From Candidatus Levyibacteriota bacterium (GTDB lineage Bacteria > Patescibacteriota > Microgenomatia > Levybacterales > UBA12049), in assembly GCA_016188975.1 (NCBI GenBank), contig JACPGQ010000008.1:17812-81811 (forward strand): a DNA stretch of 64,000 nt, given 5' to 3'. Under the pieces are notes generated by a model. It was not told where the DNA came from and did not search any database. It saw only the letters and a program-made list of their open reading frames with translations. Positions within the stretch are counted from its first letter, which is position 1, and each line of letters opens with the position of its first letter. Made by a program: the position numbers and the translations under genes. Shown here piece after piece: positions 8,811 to 57,672 of this stretch.

Positions 8811-9209
8811 TTATCTCAAGCAGTCTTGCAACACTGCCCAGCCGAGTAAAGCGCACTTTCTTCTCGTCTCTGAAAGATCAATTCCAAGCAAATCTAGCAT
8901 ATTCTCCTGAGAAAATTTTGTCAACTCAGTTTTTTTCTTGTCTCTCACAAACTCTGTCAACATTGAGGTAGCTGCAATACTAATCGCACATCCATGTCCA
9001 ACAAACGTAATAGTATGTATCTTGCGCCCTTGGGGTGGACTCGAGGCTCCACCTGCGGAATTTTTCTCAAACCGTATGAACATTTCAATTTCATCACCAC
9101 AAAGGGGGTTGAGTTGTTTTGAGGAAACGTGATATGTTGCCAGCACCCCAAAATTCTGTGGGTTTTTGTAGTGATCTAGTATTTCTTCTTTATAGAGGTA
9201 GCTATCCAT
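8811..9209 (-). CDS. sufU: SUF-type Fe-S cluster scaffold protein (SufU/NifU-like)
   Basis: Three conserved Cys in the contexts NPLCGDE, GHGCAIS and RRKCA. Confidence 0.8.
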   Translation of the reverse strand: MDSYLYKEEILDHYKNPQNFGVLATYHVSSKQLNPLCGDEIEMFIRFEKNSAGGASSPPQGRKIHTITFVGHGCAISIAATSMLTEFVRDKKKTELTKFSQENMLDLLGIDLSETRRKCALLGWAVLQDCLR

Positions 9210-37126: not shown

Positions 37127-37847
37127 CTACGAGAGGTATGGGGAAATCTCCGTTGTTATCTTTCCGTTTGTTAGGAGAAAATCAGAGGAAAAGACGTTCC
37201 ATGAGTCACCAGTCAGACTTTGGATTGTTGCACCGGCTTTTTCTGCAATCAGAAGAGCAGCGCCAATAGCTACCGCGGCTTTCAATTGCACGAACGTTCG
37301 GCAAGACTTTTTCAAGGATCCTGAGTGTCTGCATTCTTTTTTGAATATCCCATGACCAATCGCAACACAGGAGTGCTTGCTTGAGTGTCTCAGTTGACGA
37401 AACATGAATCGGAGTATAGTTGAGATAGGCTTGGCTCTCGTCTTGTTGAGCCCAATACAATTTCTTCTCAAGGGGAAGGTATACAACTCCTACTTTAGGT
37501 TTTCCTAAACTGACAAGCCCAACTGAAATTGCAAAATGCTTGCTTCCTCGCGAAAAATTTGTTGTCCCATCAATCGGGTCAATAACCCACAGGTTTTCTT
37601 TCTCAATAAAAGTCGTATATTCAGATGGTGCGGTCTCCTCAGTCAAAAACTCAGTTGTAGGGAATTTTCGGAAAAGTTCCTCCCGAAGAAATGCGTCGAT
37701 GGCATCATCTGCCTCTGTTGCGAAATCAACCCCTCCTTTACTGTGTGTTTTGAATCCTTGTTTGAGAAAGCTATAAATACGCTCACCCGCAGCGGTAACG
37801 ACAGCGACAACTTGCTCTCTTATCGAAGTGAGTTCTCCATCCATCAC
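37127..37847 (-). pseudogene. Inositol monophosphatase-family (SuhB/CysQ-like) gene split by a +1 frameshift
   Basis: Frame 1 carries DPIDGTTNF and ends just after ...RAIESRGS. The WD-AAG / EAGG region (AIGAALLIAEKAGATIQSLTGD) continues in the +1 frame (ORF 37127..37486). The ~23-aa AALDL.YVAAGR segment normally between them is absent. Confidence 0.5.
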
Positions 37848-39724
37848 GCAAGTAACTTTTCAACCGTTTTTACAATATTCTCTGCATCAATGCCTGCGTC
37901 CTTTAAGAGCAATTCCGGTTTTCCAGACCGGGAAAACTTTTTGACGGCAAGCTTCTCTACTCTTGCATCACTCTGAGAGACGGCAGAAAGAACAAAATCC
38001 CCTAACCCTCCATGCTCATAATGGTCTTCAACGGTAACGATAATTTTTTGCTTAGTCTCATCGAGACATGAAAGGAGCGTAGGTTTATCGATAGGTTTTA
38101 TGCTGTAACAATCAACGATACGGACATGTATTCTTTTTTTCTTTAGCTCCTCATACGCTTTCAACGCTTCGTGAACAGTGATACCTGCTGCGACAATCGT
38201 TAATATGTCATCCTGAGCGAAGCGAAGGATCTTGGACCCACCAATGGTAAATGTAGCGTCATTTTTATAGAGAACCGGAGTTTTGGGGCGGAGGGTTCGA
38301 AGGTATGAGATACCTTTATGCACTGCAAGAAGCGGGAGAAGTTTTGCTGTAGACACTGCGTCTGATGGATGGAGAACAACTGCCTCAGGAATCGTCCCAA
38401 ACATCGCGATATCCTCAAGTCCCATTTGCGATGAACCATCCTCGCCTATCGAAACGCCCGAATGAGACCCGACAAAAGTGATATTTGCATGACCGATCGC
38501 TCCCATTCTGATTTGATCAAACGCCCGAGTTAGAAACGCTGCAAATGTTGAGACGAATGGCTTTTTCCCGATTCGAGACATGCCAACCGCAACACCAACC
38601 ATATTTTGCTCAGCAATAAAGCACTCGACGAACCGATCAGGAATTGCTTTCATAAAGTCTAAGCTATACGTTGAATTCTTTACTTCTGCATCAAGCGCAT
38701 AGATACGGGAATCTTCTTTGGCAATGTCTGCCAAGATTTTGCCATACACCTCACGCGTCGCTACTTCGTCACCAATGGCATAGGAACTGTCATTCTGAAC
38801 TTGTTCGCCAAAGGCGAACCTACTCGGTTTCAGCATCTTCTTTGGATCCCGAATCAAGTTCGGGATGACAACGCTCTGAGGCTCCTTTAATTGAAATCGT
38901 AATGATTCATCTACCTCTCCAAGCTCCTTGAGCGCTTTTTCAAGATCATCTTTTTTCAGAGGTTTCCCGTGCCATCCATTCGTGTCTTCTAGAAAACTCA
39001 CTCCTTTTCCTTTGAGCGTTTTCGCAACAACAACATATGGCTTTCCTGTTGTATTCTGCGTTGCATCTAAAAGCGCTTTGTCTATTTGCACTACGTCGTG
39101 CCCATCAATTGCGATAACCTCTGCTCCGAATGCTCGGAATCTTCCCACATACTCATCAATGTGATGCTCAAACATTGTCGGCTGACTCTGGCCGAGACGA
39201 TTAATATCTGAAAGAATGATGAGGTTATCAAGTTTATAATATGATGCAAAATTCAACGCTTCCCACACCTGTCCTTCTGCTAGTTCTCCATCACCAGTCA
39301 AAACATATGTTTTGTACGGAAGTTTCTCGTTTTTAGCAACATACGCTAACCCTGCACCAATTGATACTCCCTGCCCTAAAGAACCAGTCGCTGCATCGCT
39401 ATAGGCAAAATTTGGTGTTGGGTGTCCTTCAAGAGGGCTGTTGAATTGTCGAAGCGTGAGAAGATCCTCAACCGGAAACGCACCGCTGAGAGCAAAAAGG
39501 GTATAGAGAAGCGGCGCAGCATGACCCTTTGAGAGAATGAATCGGTCATTTCCAGGGAAGAGTGGGTTTTTGAGGTCATAGCGGAAGTATTTGTCAAAAA
39601 GGACTGTTGCTAGATCAGCAGCTGACATACAGGTTGTCGGATGACCAGAACCAGCAGCAGTTGTTGACTTGAGGGACCAGGCGCGAACTAACGTTGCTTT
39701 TTGAGCAAGGTGATTGGTTTGCAT
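37844..39724 (-). CDS. tkt: Transketolase
   Basis: TPP motif GDGELAEGQVWEA, N-terminal GHPTTCMSAADL, and the pyrimidine-binding and C-terminal domains are intact. Confidence 0.85.
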   Translation of the reverse strand: MQTNHLAQKATLVRAWSLKSTTAAGSGHPTTCMSAADLATVLFDKYFRYDLKNPLFPGNDRFILSKGHAAPLLYTLFALSGAFPVEDLLTLRQFNSPLEGHPTPNFAYSDAATGSLGQGVSIGAGLAYVAKNEKLPYKTYVLTGDGELAEGQVWEALNFASYYKLDNLIILSDINRLGQSQPTMFEHHIDEYVGRFRAFGAEVIAIDGHDVVQIDKALLDATQNTTGKPYVVVAKTLKGKGVSFLEDTNGWHGKPLKKDDLEKALKELGEVDESLRFQLKEPQSVVIPNLIRDPKKMLKPSRFAFGEQVQNDSSYAIGDEVATREVYGKILADIAKEDSRIYALDAEVKNSTYSLDFMKAIPDRFVECFIAEQNMVGVAVGMSRIGKKPFVSTFAAFLTRAFDQIRMGAIGHANITFVGSHSGVSIGEDGSSQMGLEDIAMFGTIPEAVVLHPSDAVSTAKLLPLLAVHKGISYLRTLRPKTPVLYKNDATFTIGGSKILRFAQDDILTIVAAGITVHEALKAYEELKKKRIHVRIVDCYSIKPIDKPTLLSCLDETKQKIIVTVEDHYEHGGLGDFVLSAVSQSDARVEKLAVKKFSRSGKPELLLKDAGIDAENIVKTVEKLLA

Positions 39725-40860: not shown

Positions 40861-41472
40861 TCACATCTCCAGGCTTTTCCATAAGTATCTGCACCCAAGT
40901 GTCCGGTAGGGTTTCCACTTATTAGCAATAGTTAACGCAGTTTTCTCTGATGGTTCTTTTCGCAACCTATACAGTTTTTGCATCGCTCTCTTGAGCCCCA
41001 AATCACCATATGAAAAAACATCAAGTCTCCCCATGCTAAACATCAAAAACATCTCTGCTGTCCATCTGCCGATTCCTTTAACCTTAATCAGTTCCTGAAT
41101 AATTTCTTCATCTGTCATAATTTCAAACTGCTCAAAGAGAATTGCACTCTCCATCGTCTTTTTTGCCAGATCCTTGATGTAGGAGATTTTCTGCCAAGAG
41201 ATACCAACATCTCTAATCTTCTGATCAGGAATATCAAGCGTCAGTGCGGGGTCAACTTGCTCTTTCGGAAAAAGGGCAATAAATCTTTTCCAGATAGTAT
41301 CCGCTGCTTTTATTGAGAGTTGCTGAGAAACGACTGATTCGACAAGCTCAATGAAATAATTCCCTCCCTTGCGAGGGTCAATTGGCCCGACTTGTCCAAT
41401 AACCGATTTAAGGATAGGGTCTTTTTTGGCAAGGTATGTTGCAATCTCTTTTCCTGTAGGGCTTTTTTTCAT
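40861..41472 (-). CDS. HhH-GPD DNA glycosylase (AlkA / 3-methyladenine glycosylase II-like)
   Basis: The helix-hairpin-helix reads IKVKGIGRWTAEMFLMF, followed by the catalytic Asp region (FSYGDLG). Confidence 0.65.
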   Translation of the reverse strand: MKKSPTGKEIATYLAKKDPILKSVIGQVGPIDPRKGGNYFIELVESVVSQQLSIKAADTIWKRFIALFPKEQVDPALTLDIPDQKIRDVGISWQKISYIKDLAKKTMESAILFEQFEIMTDEEIIQELIKVKGIGRWTAEMFLMFSMGRLDVFSYGDLGLKRAMQKLYRLRKEPSEKTALTIANKWKPYRTLGCRYLWKSLEM

Positions 41473-50334: not shown

Positions 50335-50530
50335 AAAAAACCCCGATTTCTCGGGGTGCAAAACTCCACATAAACAATCTGCAGACTTTCCCTTCTTTCA
50401 TCCCGACTATACGGTCGACGCTGGGATATACCAGACTCGTGTCCAACACTTAGGTCAGACTCGTGGGTTTAGAACGTTAAAGCGAAGCTTTTTACGTTCC
50501 TATACCACCGATTAGGATTTCCACCTTGCC
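50335..50530 (-). promoter_or_regulatory. FMN riboswitch (RFN element) with an intrinsic terminator/sequestrator abutting the ribE start
   Basis: On the minus strand: CCUUCGGGGCAAGGUGGAAAUCCUAAUCGGUGGUAUA...GUCUGGUAUAUCCCAGCGUCGACCGUAUAGUCGGGAUGAAAGAAGG. This matches the conserved RFN P1-P6 core (UUCGGGGCAGGGUGAAAUUCCC...GCCGACGGUAUAGUCCGGAUG.GAGAG). It is followed by CACCCCGAGAAAUCGGGGUUUUUU. Confidence 0.8.
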
Positions 50531-50644
50531 CCGAAGGAATGTGCGTTAATTGTACCATAAAAATTCCAGGATTTCTTAAGATTTAATTTTATGCATGCGG
50601 TAGCAAAAATGGATGTTTGATTGATAAATCAATCTTAAAGGTTA

Positions 50645-53182: not shown

Positions 53183-56002
53183 TTAGTTTGGATAATGGCA
53201 CCGCTTCCACTTTTTTCCTGATCCACACCAACAGGGATCATTTCGACCGAGTTTCTTCTTTGAAGAAACGAGGGAGTCCGCCGAAGCCTTTGGCGTAGAT
53301 GGACGGCCAACTCCTTTTGCGTCTTCGCTCACTTCACTTTCAGGTGTATTTTCAACAGCATTCTGGTTTCCAGATGGTTGCGAATTATCGTGGACGTGAA
53401 TTCTATAAATCTGATGCGCTGCTTCATCATCTATTGCCGCTAACAATCGCTCAAACATGCGGTATGCTTCATTTTTATACTCAACGAGCGGATCTTTCTG
53501 CGCGTACGCTTGCAATCGTATTCCCTCTCGAAGGTGATCGATTGCATCCAGATGATTCATCCAGACATTATCAATAACAGACAACATAACAAACCTCTCA
53601 ATTTGTCGCATAGTTTCCTTGCCCATCGATTCTTCACGCTTGCTATAAATGTCATGCGCGAGCCTTACGAGAAAATCAGTTTTTTCATCAGGGGTTTTGT
53701 GTTGTTCTAACTGATTGACAAGCTGTCTCTGAGATGCATCATCGAAAGGAATGATTGTCGCAAAGCTCTGAACAATTTTCACATTACTTTCACCTATCTC
53801 GCCTGTTGCATTTTGAACATTTGCCTCCATTGCAACAAGCATACTAATACTCTTATCGACACGTTCAAGAACCTGCTCACGAAGCGCTATCTCCTTATGA
53901 TCACTCTTTTCATTTTCTGCTGTGCTTTTTTTGTTTTTCTCTCCCCTTTCAGCCATAGGCTGATCGGCCTTTGGACGAGATACCTCAGATACTTCTCCCA
54001 CCGAACCAGTTTCTAAAATTTCTCTTCGCAACCTATAGATAATCTCCCGTTGCTTATTGAGGACATCATCGTACTCGACTAGATGCTTTCTGCTGTCAAA
54101 ATTGAACTTCTCTACCTTTACTTGTGCGTTCTCTATTGCTCGTGAGACAAGCGAATGTTCAAGCGGTACGTCTTCCGGCATATTAAATCTCGTCATAATA
54201 CCGGCGATTTTGTCACCGCCAAAAATACGCATAATATCATCATCAAGCCCAACAAAAAACCTCGATGCTCCAGGATCTCCCTGCCTGCCCGATCGTCCAC
54301 GAAGCTGATTATCAATACGTCGTGATTCATGTCTCTCAGTACCTATGACATATAATCCCCCAAGTTTTACCACTTCATCATGTGCTTTCTGCCACGCTTT
54401 CCATTCGGCAGTCCCGAGTTTTGGTCTGCCGTCTTCAAGCTTTGGCGTCTCGCCACCAAGGATAATATCAACACCACGACCTGCCATATTTGTTGCCACA
54501 GTTACTGCACCTTTCTTGCCAGCCTCAGCAATAATTTCTGCTTCCCGCAGGTGGTTTTTTGCATTGAGAACTGCATGCCTTATCCCCTTCCTCGTCAAAA
54601 GTTGGGAAATAATTTCATTTTTATCAATTGAGGTCGTGCCGACGAGTACCGGTTGCCCTTTTTTATACGCTTCTTCTATTGACTTAGCAACAGCAGTGAG
54701 TTTTGCACGGGCTGTCTTGTAAACTGCATCAGGAAAATCCTGCCTAACGACAGGGTTATTTGTAGGAATTGCAATGACATCGAGTTTGTAAATTTTCTTA
54801 AATTCTTCAGCTTCTGTCAGCGCAGTCCCTGTCATCCCTGCGAGCTTCTCATACATCCTGAAGTAATTTTGGAGGGAAACTGTTGCAAGTGTTTTTGATT
54901 CCCGCTGGATGGGAACATTTTCTTTTGCTTCAATCGCTTGGTGAATCCCATCTGAAAGACGACGTCCAGGAAGAAGTCTTCCCGTAAATTCATCAACAAG
55001 AATCACTTCTTCGTCCCGAACGATATACTCTTTCTCTCTATGAAAAAGCGTCCGCGCTTTGAGCGCTGCTTCTAAGTGATACACTGTATCAAAATCTTTC
55101 TCGTAGATATTTGCGATACCGTAGAGTTTTTCAATTTTTCCTATGCCATGATCAGTAAGATGTGCAGTACGCAACTTCTCATCAATTTTATAGTCTGTTT
55201 CGGAAGATAATTTATTGACAAGTTTTGCATATTCATAGTACCGTTCCGATGGTGATTCATCTGGCTGAGAAATAATGTGCGGTGTACGGGCTTCATCGAT
55301 GAGGACTGAATCAACTTCATCAACAATCGCAAAATAAAAGTCGCGCTGGACGACATTTGCAATATTTCCTGCCATATTATCTCTGAGGTAATCAAATCCA
55401 TATTCTGAATTGATACCATAGACGACATCCGCCTGATATGCCTCTTTTCTCGTAATAGGTTTCAAATGAGCAAGTCTGTAATCTGTTGCTTCTGTGTCGA
55501 CAAATGATGGGTCATACAAAAATGACCGCTCGCTAATCATCGATGCAACAGAAACTCCAAGGAGGTGAAAAATAGGACCCATCCATCCAGCATCACGGCG
55601 TGCAAGGTAATCATTGACAGTAACAAGATGAACACTTCGTCCCGTCAGACTATTCAGGTACAGTGCAGGGACTGCGGAGAGCGTTTTTCCTTCACCTGTT
55701 TTCTGCTCTGCATTTTTTCCTTCTGAAAGAGCAATTGCAGCCATCAGTTGTACGTCATAGTGACGAAGTCCAGTGACCCGTCGGGATGCTTCGCGGACGA
55801 GTGCAAACGCTTCGGGCAACAGTAATTCTATTTTTTCACTTTTTTTTATCCGTGTGCGAAATTCTTCTGTCTTTTTTGCAAAATCTTTGTCTTTTAGTTT
55901 TTTCGCTTGCTCCTCAAGTACATTGATTTGATCAATGATCGGTGTAAACCGCCTGATTTCGCCCTCGTTTGTACTGAAGAATCGTTGAAGAATCTGAAGC
56001 AT
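53183..56002 (-). CDS. secA: Preprotein translocase ATPase SecA
   Basis: 939 aa with the DEAD-like motor motifs and a C-terminal zinc finger (CWCGSGKKWKRCHYPN). Confidence 0.9.
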   Translation of the reverse strand: MLQILQRFFSTNEGEIRRFTPIIDQINVLEEQAKKLKDKDFAKKTEEFRTRIKKSEKIELLLPEAFALVREASRRVTGLRHYDVQLMAAIALSEGKNAEQKTGEGKTLSAVPALYLNSLTGRSVHLVTVNDYLARRDAGWMGPIFHLLGVSVASMISERSFLYDPSFVDTEATDYRLAHLKPITRKEAYQADVVYGINSEYGFDYLRDNMAGNIANVVQRDFYFAIVDEVDSVLIDEARTPHIISQPDESPSERYYEYAKLVNKLSSETDYKIDEKLRTAHLTDHGIGKIEKLYGIANIYEKDFDTVYHLEAALKARTLFHREKEYIVRDEEVILVDEFTGRLLPGRRLSDGIHQAIEAKENVPIQRESKTLATVSLQNYFRMYEKLAGMTGTALTEAEEFKKIYKLDVIAIPTNNPVVRQDFPDAVYKTARAKLTAVAKSIEEAYKKGQPVLVGTTSIDKNEIISQLLTRKGIRHAVLNAKNHLREAEIIAEAGKKGAVTVATNMAGRGVDIILGGETPKLEDGRPKLGTAEWKAWQKAHDEVVKLGGLYVIGTERHESRRIDNQLRGRSGRQGDPGASRFFVGLDDDIMRIFGGDKIAGIMTRFNMPEDVPLEHSLVSRAIENAQVKVEKFNFDSRKHLVEYDDVLNKQREIIYRLRREILETGSVGEVSEVSRPKADQPMAERGEKNKKSTAENEKSDHKEIALREQVLERVDKSISMLVAMEANVQNATGEIGESNVKIVQSFATIIPFDDASQRQLVNQLEQHKTPDEKTDFLVRLAHDIYSKREESMGKETMRQIERFVMLSVIDNVWMNHLDAIDHLREGIRLQAYAQKDPLVEYKNEAYRMFERLLAAIDDEAAHQIYRIHVHDNSQPSGNQNAVENTPESEVSEDAKGVGRPSTPKASADSLVSSKKKLGRNDPCWCGSGKKWKRCHYPN

Positions 56003-56052
56003 AGTGGGAGTATTTTATCACATTTACGCTCCGAGTGCTGAAACATTGTCCG

Positions 56053-56096
56053 AAAAAAACCCCCTACAAATTCGCCAACTGGCGAAGGGCAGGGGG
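56053..56096 (-). terminator. Intrinsic terminator in the secA leader (nested hairpin plus a 7-U tract)
   Basis: Minus strand: CCCCCUGCCCUUCGCCAGUUGGCGAAUUUGUAGGGGG followed by UUUUUUU. It lies between the poly-Lys mini-ORF and the secA ATG. Confidence 0.55.
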
Positions 56097-56149
56097 TTTT
56101 ACCAACTGATCAATTGGTAATCAAGTCCGCTCTTGCGGACAGATACCAA

Positions 56150-56182
56150 TTATTTCTTCTTCTTCTTTTTCTTCTTTGCCAT
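56150..56182 (-). CDS. Mini-ORF MAKKKKKKKK (10 codons) with a very strong Shine-Dalgarno, in the secA 5' leader
   Basis: AAAGGAAAAAAGAGGAGGTGAATCCACC-ATG GCA AAG AAG AAA AAG AAG AAG AAG AAA TAA. The Shine-Dalgarno GGAGGUGA(A)UCC is almost the full complement of the 16S 3' tail. A plausible TTGACA -35 box lies ~90 nt upstream. Confidence 0.4.
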   Translation of the reverse strand: MAKKKKKKKK

Positions 56183-56489
56183 GGTGGATTCACCTCCTCT
56201 TTTTTCCTTTGTCATTTCCGCAAGGAATCACAAAGTAAATGATGAATAAATTATTGAGATATTTACTATGGTTTGTCAAGGAAATTTCGTAGCTTCAAAA
56301 CACTGCGATTTTATTGACTTGAAGGGATAAAATATGAAGGAAAATATTACGATTTTTTAATGAAAAATCGATAAAAATTGTTACATTGTTACCATTGTTT
56401 CATTGTTAAACTAAAAACATAAAGAAATCTTCAATAAACATTTTCTGAAAATATAGCGTGTCCAGCAATGGAACAGTGAAACAAGAGGA

Positions 56490-57672
56490 TTATTTTTTAG
56501 AAGTAATGATATCTTTTCCAATATATTTTCTTAAAACTTCAGGAATAATAACGCTACCATCTTTCTGTTGGTAATTTTCTACAATAGCAACAAGTGTACG
56601 TCCAATGGCAAATGCAGTGCCGTTTAAAATATTCACAATTTTTTTTTCATTGCCGTCTTGATACTTGATATTCAACCTCCGCGATTGAAAATCTGTAATT
56701 GTTGATGCAGATACACATTTTGACAACCTGGTACGGAATATCCAACGACTGGAAAAATTTTTCTTCCAAAGAAACAAAATACTCATGCTCTTTGTCATCC
56801 TCTCCTTGTGGGACATAGGATACCATCTCTACTTTGTCAAACTGATGGACTCTGATAATGCCTTTTGTGTCTTTTCCATAACTTCCCGCTTCACGACGAA
56901 ATGCTGTTGAGAATCCGACATAACGACGGGGCAAATCTTTTTTGAGAAAAACTTCATTCTTATGCATGGGTACAATGCTATGCTCTGCTGTCCCGACCAA
57001 CACGAGGTCATCTTTGGGAATCTGAAACATATCTTCATCTCCTCCGTGTTCCATATATCCCATTGCACGCATCGAATCTGTCTTGATGAGGACTGGCGGC
57101 ACAACCGGAATAAATCCTTCTTTTATCAGCGTTTCGAATGCAAATTGTACAAGCGCAAATTCCAGGAGCGCTGCTTCGTTTTTGAGATATGCAAACCGGG
57201 CCCCTGAGACTTTTGCGGCTCGGTCGATATCAATAATGTCTAGTATCTGTCCGAGCTCAACATGGTCTTTTGGAGTAAATGAAAGTTTTGTTGGCTCTTT
57301 ATGTTTGCGGACAACTTCGTTTTCTTTATCGTTTTTCCCAACCTTTACATCGGGCTTTGCGGGATTGGCCACTTGGCGAAGCAGCATATCCAACTCTTCT
57401 TTGAGAGCAGCCAATACATGTTCTTCTTTCTCAAGCTTGTCTTTTAACTCTCTTCCTTTTTCTCTATATGAATTTCTTTCCTCTTCAACCGCGTTTGACG
57501 CGGCTTTCGTAAATGCATTTCGCTCTTCACGAAGACCCTGCACTTTTTGCAAAACGCCAAAATACGCCCTCTCTATCTCTAAAAGGTGGTTGATATCAAC
57601 AGGATAATTCTTGTCTTTCGCAGACTTTGAGACAAGCGATGGGTTCTCGCGGATATACTTTATATCGATCAT
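56490..57672 (-). pseudogene. serS: Seryl-tRNA synthetase interrupted by an internal ~75-nt deletion plus a +1 frameshift
   Basis: ORF 56647..57672 encodes SerS up to ...DIPYQVVKMC. ORF 56490..56816, in the +1 frame, encodes TDFQSRRLNIKY...LNGTAFAIGRTLVAIVENYQQKDGSVIIPEVLRKYIG. The canonical TGDLGFSAAKTYDLEVW.P.Q..YREISSCSN block between these is not encoded in any frame. Confidence 0.6.

What the first reader, a model, noticed from the sequence alone, without database searches (positions are those of the whole stretch)
56041..56220. Poly-lysine mini-ORF (MAKKKKKKKK) with a near-perfect anti-16S Shine-Dalgarno and a downstream intrinsic terminator in the secA leader
On the minus strand, the ~50 nt upstream of secA end with a classic rho-independent terminator (nested GC hairpin plus UUUUUUU, 56053-56096). 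Immediately 5' of it is a 33-nt ORF:
- ATG GCA (AAG)2 AAA (AAG)4 AAA TAA;
- preceded at 8-nt spacing by AAGAGGAGGTGAATCC.

This Shine-Dalgarno is complementary to about 11 nt of the 16S 3' tail. It is far stronger than the ribosome-binding site of any annotated gene in the window (groES, groEL, secA and prfB have essentially none). A short stem-loop (GTCCGC-AAGA-GCGGAC) follows the stop codon.

Leader peptide, then hairpins, then terminator, then gene is the architecture of a ribosome-mediated attenuator. Runs of Lys codons are known ribosome-pausing sequences. If so, this would be a lysine/charged-tRNA-Lys- or translation-status-sensing attenuator controlling secA. I know of no described leader of this kind for secA.

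The alternative reading is a (CTT)n microsatellite that happens to lie behind an SD-like box.
Basis: partly seen in the sequence, partly recalled or inferred. Interest (0 to 1): 0.7.

Follow-up and report, generated by a model that had tools for sequence, protein, structure and literature searches.

The report
Conserved oligolysine micro-gene upstream of secA
A ten-codon gene spelling Met-Ala-Lys8, with its own promoter, an almost perfect ribosome-binding site and its own terminator, is conserved as 9-36-codon lysine-rich versions between serS and secA in more than a hundred uncultured Microgenomates (CPR) bacteria, so it is a real, unannotated translated mini-gene rather than a repeat artefact, but it does not look like a switch that controls secA.

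Summary
On the minus strand, a strong Shine-Dalgarno box precedes ATG GCA (AAR)8 TAA (56182-56150). Hairpins and a strong intrinsic terminator (56096-53) follow, then secA (ATG 56002).

The mini-ORF is not a chance microsatellite. I recovered 108 related loci, mostly by a scan for a nearby palindrome that ignored the ORF, plus 6 found through SecA alone. All carry an SD-led ORF of 9-36 codons. Of 827 internal codons, 77% are Lys and the rest Ala, Arg, Thr, Val or Gly. None is Asp or Glu, and there is clear codon periodicity.

The attenuator reading is not supported:
- No antiterminator competes with the terminator in any modelled ribosome position.
- A conserved extended -10 box (TGnTAnAAT) lies downstream of the terminator, 6-9 nt before the secA ATG. 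Relatives that lack the unit have it too.
- Lys is often replaced by Arg.
- AAG is preferred over the slippery AAA.

Best reading: an autonomous, probably highly expressed micro-gene for a polycationic peptide, inherited in the serS-secA spacer of one clade and lost several times. Its 3' UTR holds a hairpin that covers the stop codon and an unexplained, near-invariant palindrome. What the peptide does is unknown. No database or paper searched describes it.

The parts
56280..56354 (-). Conserved A/T-tract block upstream of the -35 box, including TTTTGAAGC at 56300-56292. It is probably an upstream promoter element or curved DNA.
   Evidence: About 100 unique family sequences, lined up at the -35 box, share the blocks TGATTTTTGC, CAATCTAAA and TTTTGAAGC. 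Function is inferred.
56250..56279 (-). Sigma-70-type promoter of the micro-gene: TTGACA at 56279-56274, then a 17-nt spacer and CAATAA (or an 18-nt spacer and AATAAT).
   Evidence: It matches 11 of 12 consensus positions. TTGACA followed by 17 nt and CAnnAT is seen in nearly every member whose upstream DNA is held. The transcription start has not been mapped.
56207..56235 (-). Hairpin in the 5' UTR (CTTTGTGATTCC...GGAAATGACAAAG). It is not conserved in the family.
   Evidence: Seen (I1). 5' UTRs in the family vary from about 25 to 150 nt with differing hairpins.
56187..56202 (-). Shine-Dalgarno box AAGAGGAGGTGAATCC. The core AGGAGGTGA lies at 56198-56190, 7 nt before the ATG.
   Evidence: Seen. 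In the family, the longest contiguous match to TAAGGAGGTGATC has a median of 10 nt and a maximum of 13, and the spacing is 6-10 nt.
56150..56182 (-). Micro-ORF ATG GCA (AAG)2 AAA (AAG)4 AAA TAA, encoding MAKKKKKKKK.
   Evidence: Seen. There are 108 family members, 80 distinct ORF DNAs and 54 distinct peptides of 9-34 aa. No acidic residue occurs and codon periodicity is clear. A 36-aa version appears in L279.
56112..56151 (-). P1 hairpin. Its base, AATTGGTA (56151-56144), pairs with TACCAATT (56119-56112) and includes the last two bases of the stop codon. Its tip is GTCCGC-AAGA-GCGGAC (56140-56125).
   Evidence: Seen (I6). Compensatory changes occur at three pairs, including stop-codon base 3 against palindrome position 6 (A-U 23, G-C 4, G-U 4, no mismatch). 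The tip is variable in the family. P1 is more stable than the palindrome hairpin in 59 of 63 unique sequences.
56099..56120 (-). 22-nt palindrome TTACCAATTGATCAGTTGGTAA. Its 5' half is the 3' arm of P1, and its 3' half (CAGTTGGTA, 56108-56100) repeats the 5' arm of P1.
   Evidence: Seen (I3). It is a single copy in the window. It is present in 8 of the 10 units found through SecA alone and absent in L282 and L283. Its role is unknown.
56053..56100 (-). Intrinsic terminator: A-tract 56100-56097, interrupted GC stem 56096-56060, and T7 at 56059-56053.
   Evidence: Seen (I2, I9). A hairpin plus T-run is present in 94 of 98 unique family sequences, with a median free energy of -16.4 kcal/mol. Stem sequences differ while pairing is kept.
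56012..56022 (-). Extended -10 promoter box of secA (TGTGATAAAAT; hexamer TAAAAT at 56017-56012), 9 nt before the secA ATG. This would make the mRNA leaderless or nearly so.
   Evidence: TGnTAnnAT is conserved in 95 unique family sequences. It ends 6 nt (36 sequences), 7 nt (10) or 9 nt (21) before the first ATG or GTG. It is also present in relatives without the unit. The same layout precedes other genes in the window.
53183..56002 (-). secA (939 aa), the downstream neighbour.
   Evidence: All SecA Pfam domains are present.
56490..57672 (-). serS, the upstream neighbour. In the window it is split into ORFs of 341 and 108 aa.
   Evidence: Seen. serS lies upstream of the unit in 91 of 92 loci. 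The window lacks 83 nt that are present in an otherwise identical assembly.

Best explanation
This is an autonomous micro-gene, not a leader of secA.

Its layout on the minus strand is:
- a strong sigma-70-type promoter: a consensus -35 box, a 17-nt spacer, and conserved A/T-rich DNA upstream;
- a short transcript with an unusually long Shine-Dalgarno sequence;
- a 9-36-codon lysine-rich ORF (MAKKKKKKKK in the window);
- a P1 hairpin that covers the stop codon;
- an intrinsic terminator.

The selected product is a small polycationic peptide. I infer that it acts as a polycation that binds RNA, ribosomes, DNA or acidic lipids.

secA is transcribed separately, as a leaderless mRNA, from an extended -10 promoter just downstream of the terminator. 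The terminator therefore ends the micro-gene, and probably any read-through from serS, and shields the secA promoter.

The unit arose once in the serS-secA spacer of a Microgenomates clade that includes Levybacteria. It has been inherited vertically there and lost several times.

Shown:
- conservation of the start codon, reading frame, stop codon, basic composition, SD and terminator;
- absence of an antiterminator;
- conservation of the downstream -10 box.

Inferred:
- the transcription starts;
- high expression;
- what the peptide does.
For: Coding:
- A metagenome scan with the palindrome alone returned 120 loci, about 105 of them family members. With three genome loci and the window this makes 108 members, each with an SD-led ORF.
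- Six further units found through SecA alone all carry the ORF.
- Of 827 internal codons: K 637, A 65, R 56, T 28, V 25, G 7, and no D or E.
- In purine-only codons, G occurs at position 1 in 6 of 694 (all Gly), at position 2 in 57 (Arg) and at position 3 in 426.
- The same peptide is encoded by up to 9 different DNA sequences.
- The start is ATG in 79 of 80 unique ORFs and GTG once. The stop is always TAA or TAG.
- AAG:AAA is 424:213 in the mini-ORFs, against AAA 311: AAG 164 in the window's genes.

Separate transcription unit:
- The promoter TTGACA-17-CAnnAT and a 75-nt upstream block are conserved.
- A terminator is present in 94 of 98 unique sequences.
- The terminator folds regardless of modelled ribosome position.
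- The extended -10 box ends mostly 6-9 nt before the secA ATG. It is also there in relatives that lack the unit.
- A leaderless layout is common in the window: 19 of 66 ORFs have a -10-like hexamer ending 4-11 nt before the start, and only 11 of 66 have anything SD-like.
- In L144 the unit and the secA promoter lie about 400 nt apart.

Inheritance:
- All unit-bearing SecA sequences form one clade, with L002, L004 and L005 nested inside it as losses.
- L002 and L275-L277 keep only the post-terminator part.
- serS lies upstream in 91 of 92 loci.
Against: - No expression data exist. The promoters are consensus matches supported by conservation only.
- The unit sits 45-103 nt before secA in 78 of the 79 loci that extend far enough; in L144 the gap is 442 nt. 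This would also fit a cis function.
- The 3' UTR looks like a translation-sensitive switch whose output is unknown. P1 overlaps the stop codon, and the 3' half of the palindrome repeats the 5' arm of P1.
- The near-invariant palindrome is not explained by a plain peptide-gene model.
- A free 10-residue peptide may be short-lived, and no partner or phenotype is known.
Confidence: 0.55

Rival explanations
1. One reading: the mini-ORF is a leader peptide of a ribosome-mediated transcription attenuator. Pausing on Lys codons, or general translation status, decides whether the terminator forms, and so sets read-through into secA.
For: - The order is leader ORF, hairpins, terminator, gene.
- The unit is always directly upstream of secA.
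- The ORF is 77% Lys.
- Alternative pairings exist: the 5' arm of P1 and the 3' half of the palindrome have the same sequence and compete for the same partner.
Against: - The alternative pairings do not touch the terminator stem. The terminator stays in the minimum-energy fold under every modelled ribosome position.
- The stop codon lies 40-70 nt upstream of the terminator.
- A conserved extended -10 box lies between the terminator and secA, and secA has no SD that would serve translation from a read-through RNA.
- Relatives without the unit keep the same secA promoter.
- Lys-to-Arg replacements are common and AAG is preferred over AAA.
- secA has no link to lysine metabolism.
Confidence: 0.1
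2. The unit is coupled to secA in cis at the DNA level. Either transcription that ends at a terminator overlapping the -35 region of the secA promoter modulates that promoter (by occlusion or by RNA-polymerase hand-over). Or the 18-22-bp palindrome is the operator of a dimeric regulator that acts on secA or blocks transcription from the upstream promoter.
For: - In the compact versions, the T-run of the terminator abuts the extended -10 box of secA.
- The palindrome is almost invariant in sequence although SecA is only 60-75% identical across the clade.
- It persists in members that lack P1 (L279, L136).
- Distances from the palindrome centre to the -10 box cluster near 46, 56 and 68 bp.
Against: - The palindrome is absent or replaced in L282 and L283, which keep the ORF and the terminator.
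- Its distance to the promoter varies continuously from 42 to 108 bp, and the clustering may be phylogenetic.
- It is a single copy in the window, and no regulon is visible.
- P1 shows RNA-level covariation that involves the 5' half of the palindrome.
- No regulator gene is linked to it.
Confidence: 0.15
3. The act of translation or the RNA itself, rather than the peptide, is the function. The transcript would be a dual-function small RNA or ribosome sensor. A ribosome that ends translation melts P1 and lets the palindrome hairpin form. This would expose or hide the conserved stretch GAUCARUUGGUA for a partner RNA, a protein or an RNase. The very long SD would capture free 30S subunits.
For: - P1 includes the stop codon and has covariation.
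- P1 is more stable than the palindrome hairpin in 59 of 63 unique sequences. The 3' half of the palindrome is predicted to be single-stranded in 47 of 63 and lies next to a terminator hairpin, as in many small RNAs.
- The SD reaches 13 nt of complementarity in a genome where SDs are rare.
Against: - Selection acts on the encoded charge: there is no Glu or Asp although a single A-to-G change at the first position of a Lys codon would create Glu.
- Long versions (MPAAKKKTAAKKPAVKK...) look like ordinary Ala/Lys-rich protein tails.
- P1 and the palindrome are missing in some members that keep the ORF.
- No target complementarity was found.
Confidence: 0.15
4. It is a chance (CTT)n/(AAG)n microsatellite lying behind an SD-like box, with no function.
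For: Tandem Repeats Finder reports (TTC)7.7 at 56154-56176. ORF length varies in whole codons, as slippage of a 3-nt unit would also produce.
Against: - The start codon, Ala or Pro at codon 2, the in-frame stop, the SD and its spacing are conserved in all members.
- Substitutions follow the codon phase and never give an acidic residue.
- The long versions are non-repetitive.
- No such micro-ORF occurs elsewhere in 614 kb of control loci.
- The unit is identical in independent assemblies.
Confidence: 0.01

Closest known systems
Leader-peptide transcription attenuators (trp, his, phe, thr, leu operons of Proteobacteria; my own knowledge)
   Same: A very short ORF enriched in one amino acid, followed by hairpins with alternative pairings and an intrinsic terminator, upstream of a gene.
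   Different: - No antiterminator overlaps the terminator.
- The downstream gene has its own conserved promoter after the terminator.
- The downstream gene is unrelated to the enriched amino acid.
- Lys is freely replaced by Arg, Ala, Thr or Val.
Arrest-peptide monitors upstream of secretion genes: SecM-secA, MifM-yidC2, VemP-secDF2 (my own knowledge) and the RAPP-type arrest peptides (abstract of PMC12992588)
   Same: A small translated ORF directly upstream of a protein-export gene, secA itself in the SecM case.
   Different: - There is no signal or membrane segment and no arrest motif. The peptides are 9-36 residues, made only of Lys, Arg, Ala, Thr, Val, Gly and a few others.
- A terminator separates the ORF from secA.
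- secA has no SD to be unmasked.
Lineage-specific tiny basic ribosomal peptides: bTHX (Thermus), bS22 and bL37 (mycobacteria), eL41 (archaea and eukaryotes) (my own knowledge). Also the Ala/Lys-rich tail of uS19 in Parcubacteria (PMC9297842).
   Same: Very short and extremely Lys/Arg-rich, restricted to one lineage, with strong expression signals. CPR ribosomal proteins do carry Ala/Lys-rich extensions.
   Different: There is no sequence homology: the long versions hit no NCBIfam family. There is no evidence that the peptide is in the ribosome. At 9-12 residues, most members are shorter than any known ribosomal protein.
rpsU (bS21) of Flavobacteria, one of the few genes with a strong SD in an organism that rarely uses SDs, which serves autoregulation (my own knowledge)
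   Same: It is the one outstanding SD in a genome region where most genes have none, and it encodes a small basic product.
   Different: The analogy is only conceptual. Nothing here tests binding of the peptide near the anti-SD.
Very small bacterial genes and minigenes: mccA (7 codons) and the lambda bar minigenes (my own knowledge)
   Same: An ORF of about 10 codons with a strong SD. It would be among the shortest conserved coding sequences.
   Different: There are no linked modification or export genes (unlike mccA), and the unit is not phage-borne. A viral-contig scan for the SD-plus-MAKKKK pattern found only ordinary phage genes, mostly long, and no family member.

Membership tests
Ribosome-mediated transcription attenuator (leader-peptide type) | A short translated leader ORF enriched in the sensed amino acid's codons | tested here: met
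   The ORF is SD-led, 9-36 codons long and 77% Lys, and it is conserved in all members.
Ribosome-mediated transcription attenuator (leader-peptide type) | An intrinsic terminator between the leader ORF and the regulated gene | tested here: met
   A hairpin plus T-run is present in 94 of 98 unique sequences. In the window it lies at 56096-56053.
Ribosome-mediated transcription attenuator (leader-peptide type) | An antiterminator structure that excludes the terminator and is chosen by ribosome position | tested here: not met
   With the RNA masked for five ribosome positions, the terminator stays in the minimum-energy fold in essentially all of the 97 members modelled. The few cases with zero pairs arose because my T-run finder cut the sequence short. 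The P1/palindrome alternatives do not involve the terminator stem.
Ribosome-mediated transcription attenuator (leader-peptide type) | The regulated gene depends on read-through from the leader promoter and is functionally tied to the sensed amino acid | tested here: not met
   A conserved extended -10 box ends mostly 6-9 nt before the secA ATG, downstream of the terminator, and it is also present in relatives without the unit. secA is not a lysine gene. Transcription itself was not measured.
SecM/MifM/VemP-type translation-arrest monitors | An N-terminal export signal plus a C-terminal arrest motif | tested here: not met
   All 54 peptides are short and basic, with no hydrophobic segment and no Pro-rich or RAPP-like end.
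SecM/MifM/VemP-type translation-arrest monitors | The stalled ribosome unmasks the SD of the downstream gene on the same mRNA | tested here: not met
   secA has no SD, and a terminator lies between the ORF and secA.
Tiny basic ribosomal proteins (bTHX, bS22, bL37, eL41) | A very short Lys/Arg-rich polypeptide with strong expression signals | tested here: met
   For composition. For the promoter and SD. High expression is inferred from sequence only.
Tiny basic ribosomal proteins (bTHX, bS22, bL37, eL41) | Sequence homology to a known family | tested here: not met
   The 23-34-aa versions have no NCBIfam hit at E <= 1. Five exact peptide sequences of 23-34 aa are absent from the 15-billion-protein collection.
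Tiny basic ribosomal proteins (bTHX, bS22, bL37, eL41) | Physical presence in purified ribosomes | not testable with these tools
   This needs cryo-EM or top-down mass spectrometry of Microgenomates ribosomes.
Non-coding simple-sequence repeat | Length and sequence vary without respect to reading frame or encoded residues | tested here: not met
   Only one of 108 members (L102) has a frameshift, and it still reads as Arg-rich. Constraint follows the codon phase, and no acidic codon occurs.
Any described RNA family (Rfam 15) | A match to a covariance model | tested here: not met
   Nothing relevant appears at E <= 10 in 55700-56800. The only gathering-level hit in the window is an FMN riboswitch at 50386-50542.

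The most novel reading that the evidence does not exclude
The oligolysine peptide is a new, clade-specific component or regulator of the translation apparatus. It would be a free-standing counterpart of the Ala/Lys-rich tails seen on CPR ribosomal proteins. Its synthesis would be tied to free ribosomes through the longest possible SD, in a genome that otherwise starts most first genes without a leader. Its 3' UTR would switch structure when a ribosome reaches the stop codon. At 9-10 codons it would be among the shortest conserved protein-coding genes known.
Probability: 0.2. Interest if true: 0.85.

Novelty: new variant of a known kind. Interest (0 to 1): 0.62.

Why it matters
Gene callers do not annotate this ORF. 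Five exact peptide sequences of 23-34 aa are absent from a 15-billion-protein collection, and only one 36-aa version was seen called, with no domain assigned. Yet the ORF is conserved across a whole clade of uncultured CPR bacteria, and it has the strongest translation signal in its neighbourhood.

If the peptide is functional, it would be one of the shortest conserved genes known. It would also be a genetically encoded polycation in organisms with minimal ribosomes and metabolism.

The locus also gives a clear comparative case for two wider points:
- Leaderless mRNAs from extended -10 promoters are common in Microgenomates.
- The layout "mini-ORF, then terminator, then gene" cannot be read as an attenuator without checking for a downstream promoter.

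The near-invariant palindrome and the hairpin over the stop codon are concrete, testable RNA or DNA elements with no known counterpart.

Tried and rejected
- **Rfam.** The region at E <= 10 and the whole window at gathering level gave nothing relevant.
- **Simple terminator scan.** It missed the terminator because the stem is interrupted, so I used folding and the repeat finder instead.
- **Viral-contig scan** for SD + ATGGCAAAGAARAARAARAA. It returned 72 hits, mostly long phage proteins starting MAKKKK and none a family member. This serves as a negative control.
- **Exact look-up** of five long peptide versions in the protein collection found none. A first attempt failed on the 20-aa minimum length.
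- **NCBIfam scan** of the long versions gave no hit.
- **Literature.** Four full-text searches found no description. The nearest material was on CPR ribosome features and arrest peptides.
- **Helical phasing** between the palindrome and the secA -10 box. Peaks near 46, 56 and 68 bp are suggestive, but related sequences share spacings, so I did not rely on this.
- **Covariation of the palindrome hairpin.** This cannot be tested on the scanned set, because the search pattern fixed those bases. In the SecA-anchored sample, the sub-clade with C at position 6 keeps A at position 13. That is a mismatch in the palindrome hairpin, while position 6 pairs with the G of TAG in P1.
- **Pairings considered by eye and dropped as unconserved or too weak:**
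  - SD against the 5' arm of the terminator;
  - the loop of P1 against the terminator;
  - the 5' half of the palindrome against the secA -10 region in a read-through RNA (the G of TGGTAA is present in fewer than half of the members);
  - resemblance of the 3' half of the palindrome to the 16S 3' end;
  - an 8-nt complementarity between the 5' UTR loop and the tip of P1 in the window, which is within chance expectation (I7).
- **A plus-strand ORF (56114-56242, 42 aa)** overlapping the unit was ignored. It is only the complement of the repeat.
Full report
**Observation**

On the minus strand the window reads, in order:
- a promoter-like TTGACA-17/18-(C)AATAAT at 56279-56250, matching 11 of 12 consensus positions;
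- a 5' UTR with a hairpin at 56235-56207;
- AAGAGGAGGTGAATCC at 56202-56187;
- ATG GCA (AAG)2 AAA (AAG)4 AAA TAA at 56182-56150, encoding MAKKKKKKKK;
- a 22-nt palindrome, TTACCAATTGATCAGTTGGTAA, at 56120-56099;
- an interrupted GC-rich hairpin with T7 at 56096-56053;
- TGTGATAAAAT at 56022-56012;
- nine bases later, the secA ATG at 56002.

The gene at 53183-56002 is a full-length SecA, and the upstream gene is serS. The 291-nt stretch 56000-56290 folds better than all 200 shuffles (z = -3.35), and the minimum-energy fold shows P1 and the terminator. The repeat finder recovers the same arms independently. The contiguous match to the canonical 16S tail is 9 nt in the window rather than about 11.

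**Is the mini-ORF real?**

Among the best SecA relatives from one genome per species, three (L001, L003, L007) carry the same arrangement upstream of secA. Their peptides are MAKKKKKKKK (with a different AAA/AAG pattern), MAKKRKKRK and MAKKKKKKRR.

To avoid selecting on the ORF, I scanned the metagenome collection with the palindrome alone (ACCAATTGATCARTTGGTA). About a dozen are unrelated coding DNA. The rest, together with the three genome loci and the window, make 108 family members. Every member has the following:
- an SD with a median of 10 and a maximum of 13 contiguous bases complementary to the 16S tail, 6-10 nt before the start;
- an ATG (GTG once);
- Ala or Pro at codon 2;
- a lysine-rich frame;
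- TAA or TAG.

Peptides run from 9 to 34 residues. Examples are MAKKKKRKK, MAAKKKVKAKKKK, MAAKAKKKVVKKTTTKKTAKKKK and MPVKKKVAAKKPAAKKTVKKAVKKTVKKTAAKKK.

Codon counts settle the coding question:
- The 827 internal codons comprise K 637, A 65, R 56, T 28, V 25 and G 7. There are a few S, H, P, N and W, and no D or E.
- Among purine-only codons, G is almost never at position 1 (6 of 694, all Gly). It is common at position 2 (57, giving Arg) and very common at position 3 (426, synonymous).
- The peptide MAKKKKKKKK is encoded by nine different DNA sequences.

This pattern points to selection on a basic translation product, not on a purine-rich RNA or a free-running repeat. The single frameshifted member (L102) still reads as Arg-rich.

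Two controls support this. No other SD-led K/R-rich micro-ORF exists in the 1.48 Mb of loci from the first two scans (L001-L200) plus the window, including the 614 kb of the 77 other secA loci in the first scan. A viral-contig scan for the SD-plus-MAKKKK pattern found only ordinary phage genes, mostly long, and no family member. The unit is identical in two independent assemblies of the same organism.

**Is it an attenuator of secA?**

The unit always lies next to secA. In 78 of the 79 loci with enough downstream DNA, secA starts 45-103 nt after the palindrome. In L144 the gap is 442 nt. Four results argue against attenuation.

1. *No antiterminator.* I folded each family RNA with the ribosome absent, at the start codon, in mid-ORF, at the stop codon and just past it. 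The terminator hairpin stays in the minimum-energy structure in essentially every member. The few cases with zero pairs came from my T-run finder cutting the sequence short inside the loop. The alternative pairings that exist do not include the terminator stem.

2. *secA has its own promoter.* The DNA between the terminator and secA always holds TGnTAnnAT. In 95 unique sequences it ends 6 nt (36), 7 nt (10) or 9 nt (21) before the first ATG or GTG. This is an extended -10 promoter placed for a leaderless mRNA.
   - The same box precedes secA in relatives without the unit, even where only 40 nt separate serS from secA.
   - The same layout precedes many other first genes in the window: 19 of 66 ORFs, against 11 of 66 with any SD-like box.
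   - secA has no SD that would serve an internal start on a read-through RNA.

3. *The unit can be lost.* A neighbour-joining tree of SecA places all unit-bearing loci in one clade, with L002, L004 and L005 nested inside as losses. L002 and L275-L277 keep only the post-terminator T-run, a GAGGCTG motif and the -10 box.

4. *Codon choice does not fit a sensor.* Lys is often replaced by Arg. AAG outnumbers AAA 424:213, although the window's long genes prefer AAA 311:164. That is the reverse of what a Lys-tRNA sensor or a slippery poly(A) pause site would need. (That AAA runs make ribosomes slide is my own knowledge.)

serS is the upstream gene in 91 of 92 loci, and serS-secA synteny extends beyond the clade. 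The constant position is therefore explained by vertical inheritance in a conserved spacer.

**Anatomy of the unit**

*Promoter.* TTGACA, a 17-nt spacer and CAnnAT are present in nearly every member. They are preceded by about 75 nt of conserved A/T-tract blocks: TGATTTTTGC, CAATCTAAA and TTTTGAAGC. The 5' UTR is then variable, at 25-150 nt.

*Hairpin over the stop codon (P1).* After the stop, the commonest form is TAA TTGGTAAGC TATTTGGA GCATTACCAATT GATCA(A/G)TTGGTA.
- P1 pairs the stop codon's last bases plus TTGGTAAGC with GCATTACCAATT.
- It pairs in 88% of cells and has compensatory changes at three pairs. One of these is stop-codon base 3 against palindrome position 6 (A-U 23, G-C 4, G-U 4, no mismatch).
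- In other members its tip is replaced by unrelated GC-rich stems.

*Palindrome.* Its 3' half repeats the 5' arm of P1, so its 5' half can pair with either.
- P1 is the more stable of the two in 59 of 63 unique sequences (median -11.1 against -6.8 kcal/mol). This leaves the 3' half single-stranded next to the terminator.
- A ribosome at the stop codon would melt P1 and allow the palindrome hairpin to form. What that changes is unknown.

*Sample that did not select on the palindrome.* I searched with the SecA of L151 and looked up nine homologues, then read the sequences.
- Three lack the unit and six have it.
- All six have the SD and a Lys-rich ORF. L279 has a 36-aa version that JGI had called as a gene with no domain.
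- L282 has no palindrome. L283 has only a terminator whose loop is TGATCA.
- Adding the window and L001, L003 and L007, the ORF is intact in 10 of 10 units found through SecA alone. The palindrome is present in 8 of those 10.
- The constant core is therefore the promoter, SD, Lys-rich ORF and terminator. P1 and the palindrome are frequent accessories.

**Interpretation**

The best-supported reading is an autonomous, probably highly expressed micro-gene. Its selected product is a small polycation, and its terminator shields the leaderless secA promoter. I put this at about 0.55.

What the peptide does is inference only. CPR ribosomal proteins are reported to carry Ala/Lys-rich extensions, for example uS19 in Parcubacteria (PMC9297842). 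Tiny basic lineage-specific ribosomal peptides exist elsewhere, such as bTHX, bS22, bL37 and eL41 (my own knowledge). A ribosome- or RNA-associated role is therefore the most attractive guess.

Rivals that remain open:
- a DNA-level coupling with the secA promoter, or an operator role for the palindrome (0.15);
- a function of the RNA or of the act of translation rather than of the peptide (0.15);

The microsatellite reading is refuted.

**Comparison with known systems, and novelty**

The unit shares its layout with leader-peptide attenuators. It fails their defining features: an antiterminator, dependence of the gene on read-through, and a link to the amino acid. It shares its position with SecM-type monitors but has none of their features.

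It matches no Rfam family and no NCBIfam family. Five exact peptide sequences of 23-34 aa are not in the protein collection. Four literature searches found no description.

I rate it a new variant of a known kind, a micro-protein gene or translated mini-ORF. It has unusual features: a near-homopolymeric lysine product of 9-12 residues in most members, the longest possible SD in a largely leaderless genome, and a near-invariant palindrome of unknown role.

Noticed in passing
window 56490-57672 (-), break between 56713 and 56712: serS is split into ORFs of 341 and 108 aa. The window lacks 83 nt inside the class II catalytic core that are present in an otherwise identical Logan assembly (L273), where serS is called intact at 421 aa. 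This is an assembly error or a strain-level deletion.
   Followed up: yes
window, many gene starts, e.g. 59952 (rpsT), 40861-41472, 44399, 8811-9209, 37844-39724: Many first genes have a TAnnAT box, often with TGn before it, ending 6-9 nt before the start codon, and no SD. 19 of 66 ORFs show this, against 11 of 66 with anything SD-like. This suggests widespread leaderless mRNAs from extended -10 promoters in this Microgenomates genome.
   Followed up: partly
window 50386-50542 (-): An FMN riboswitch (RF00050, 79.5 bits) is the only Rfam hit at gathering level in the window.
   Followed up: no
window 56377-56408: An 8-nt tandem repeat (ATTGTTAC on the plus strand, AACAATG-like on the minus strand, 3.9 copies) lies in the window-specific part of the spacer between serS and the unit.
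   Followed up: no
L002:2940-3003; L275, L276, L277 around 1160-1200: Clade members without the unit keep the T-run, a GAGGCTG motif and the extended -10 box that follow the unit's terminator elsewhere. This looks like deletion of the unit rather than primary absence.
   Followed up: partly
L102 (oriented locus, mini-ORF about 60 nt before position 543): The only frameshifted member has one A fewer in an A-run and reads MAKKRRRRNSW. The shifted frame is still basic, because (AAG)n read one base on is (AGA)n, which encodes Arg.
   Followed up: partly
family loci, e.g. L093, L109, L186 (P1 tip), L107, L125, L150 (5' UTR), L174, L180 (after the terminator); window 56140-56125: GC-rich hairpin modules of the type TCCGCC-N4-GGCGGA or GCCTGCC...GGCAGGC sit at different places in different members. 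They may be small mobile palindromic insertions.
   Followed up: no
family loci, region between the palindrome and the secA -10 box: Distances from the palindrome centre to the -10 hexamer cluster near 46, 56 and 68 bp, roughly one helical turn apart. The clustering may simply reflect related sequences sharing spacings.
   Followed up: partly
family loci and window 56292-56300; downstream of terminators in e.g. L083, L167, L194: The motif TTTTGA(A/G)GC occurs both about 12 nt upstream of the unit's -35 box and, in many members and in unit-less relatives, between the terminator T-run and the secA -10 box.
   Followed up: no
L283:1000-1200: A segment of about 130 nt with terminal inverted repeats (GTCATTCTGATCC...GGATGAC) lies between the secA -10 box and the called secA start. 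A similar short piece occurs in L276. It may be a miniature mobile element.
   Followed up: no
L201 and about 40 other IMG/VR loci (L201-L272): A family of phage proteins of about 1000 aa starts with MAKKKKKSAAPSGLSISRDGLKF. It is unrelated to the finding and turned up only as a pattern match.
   Followed up: no
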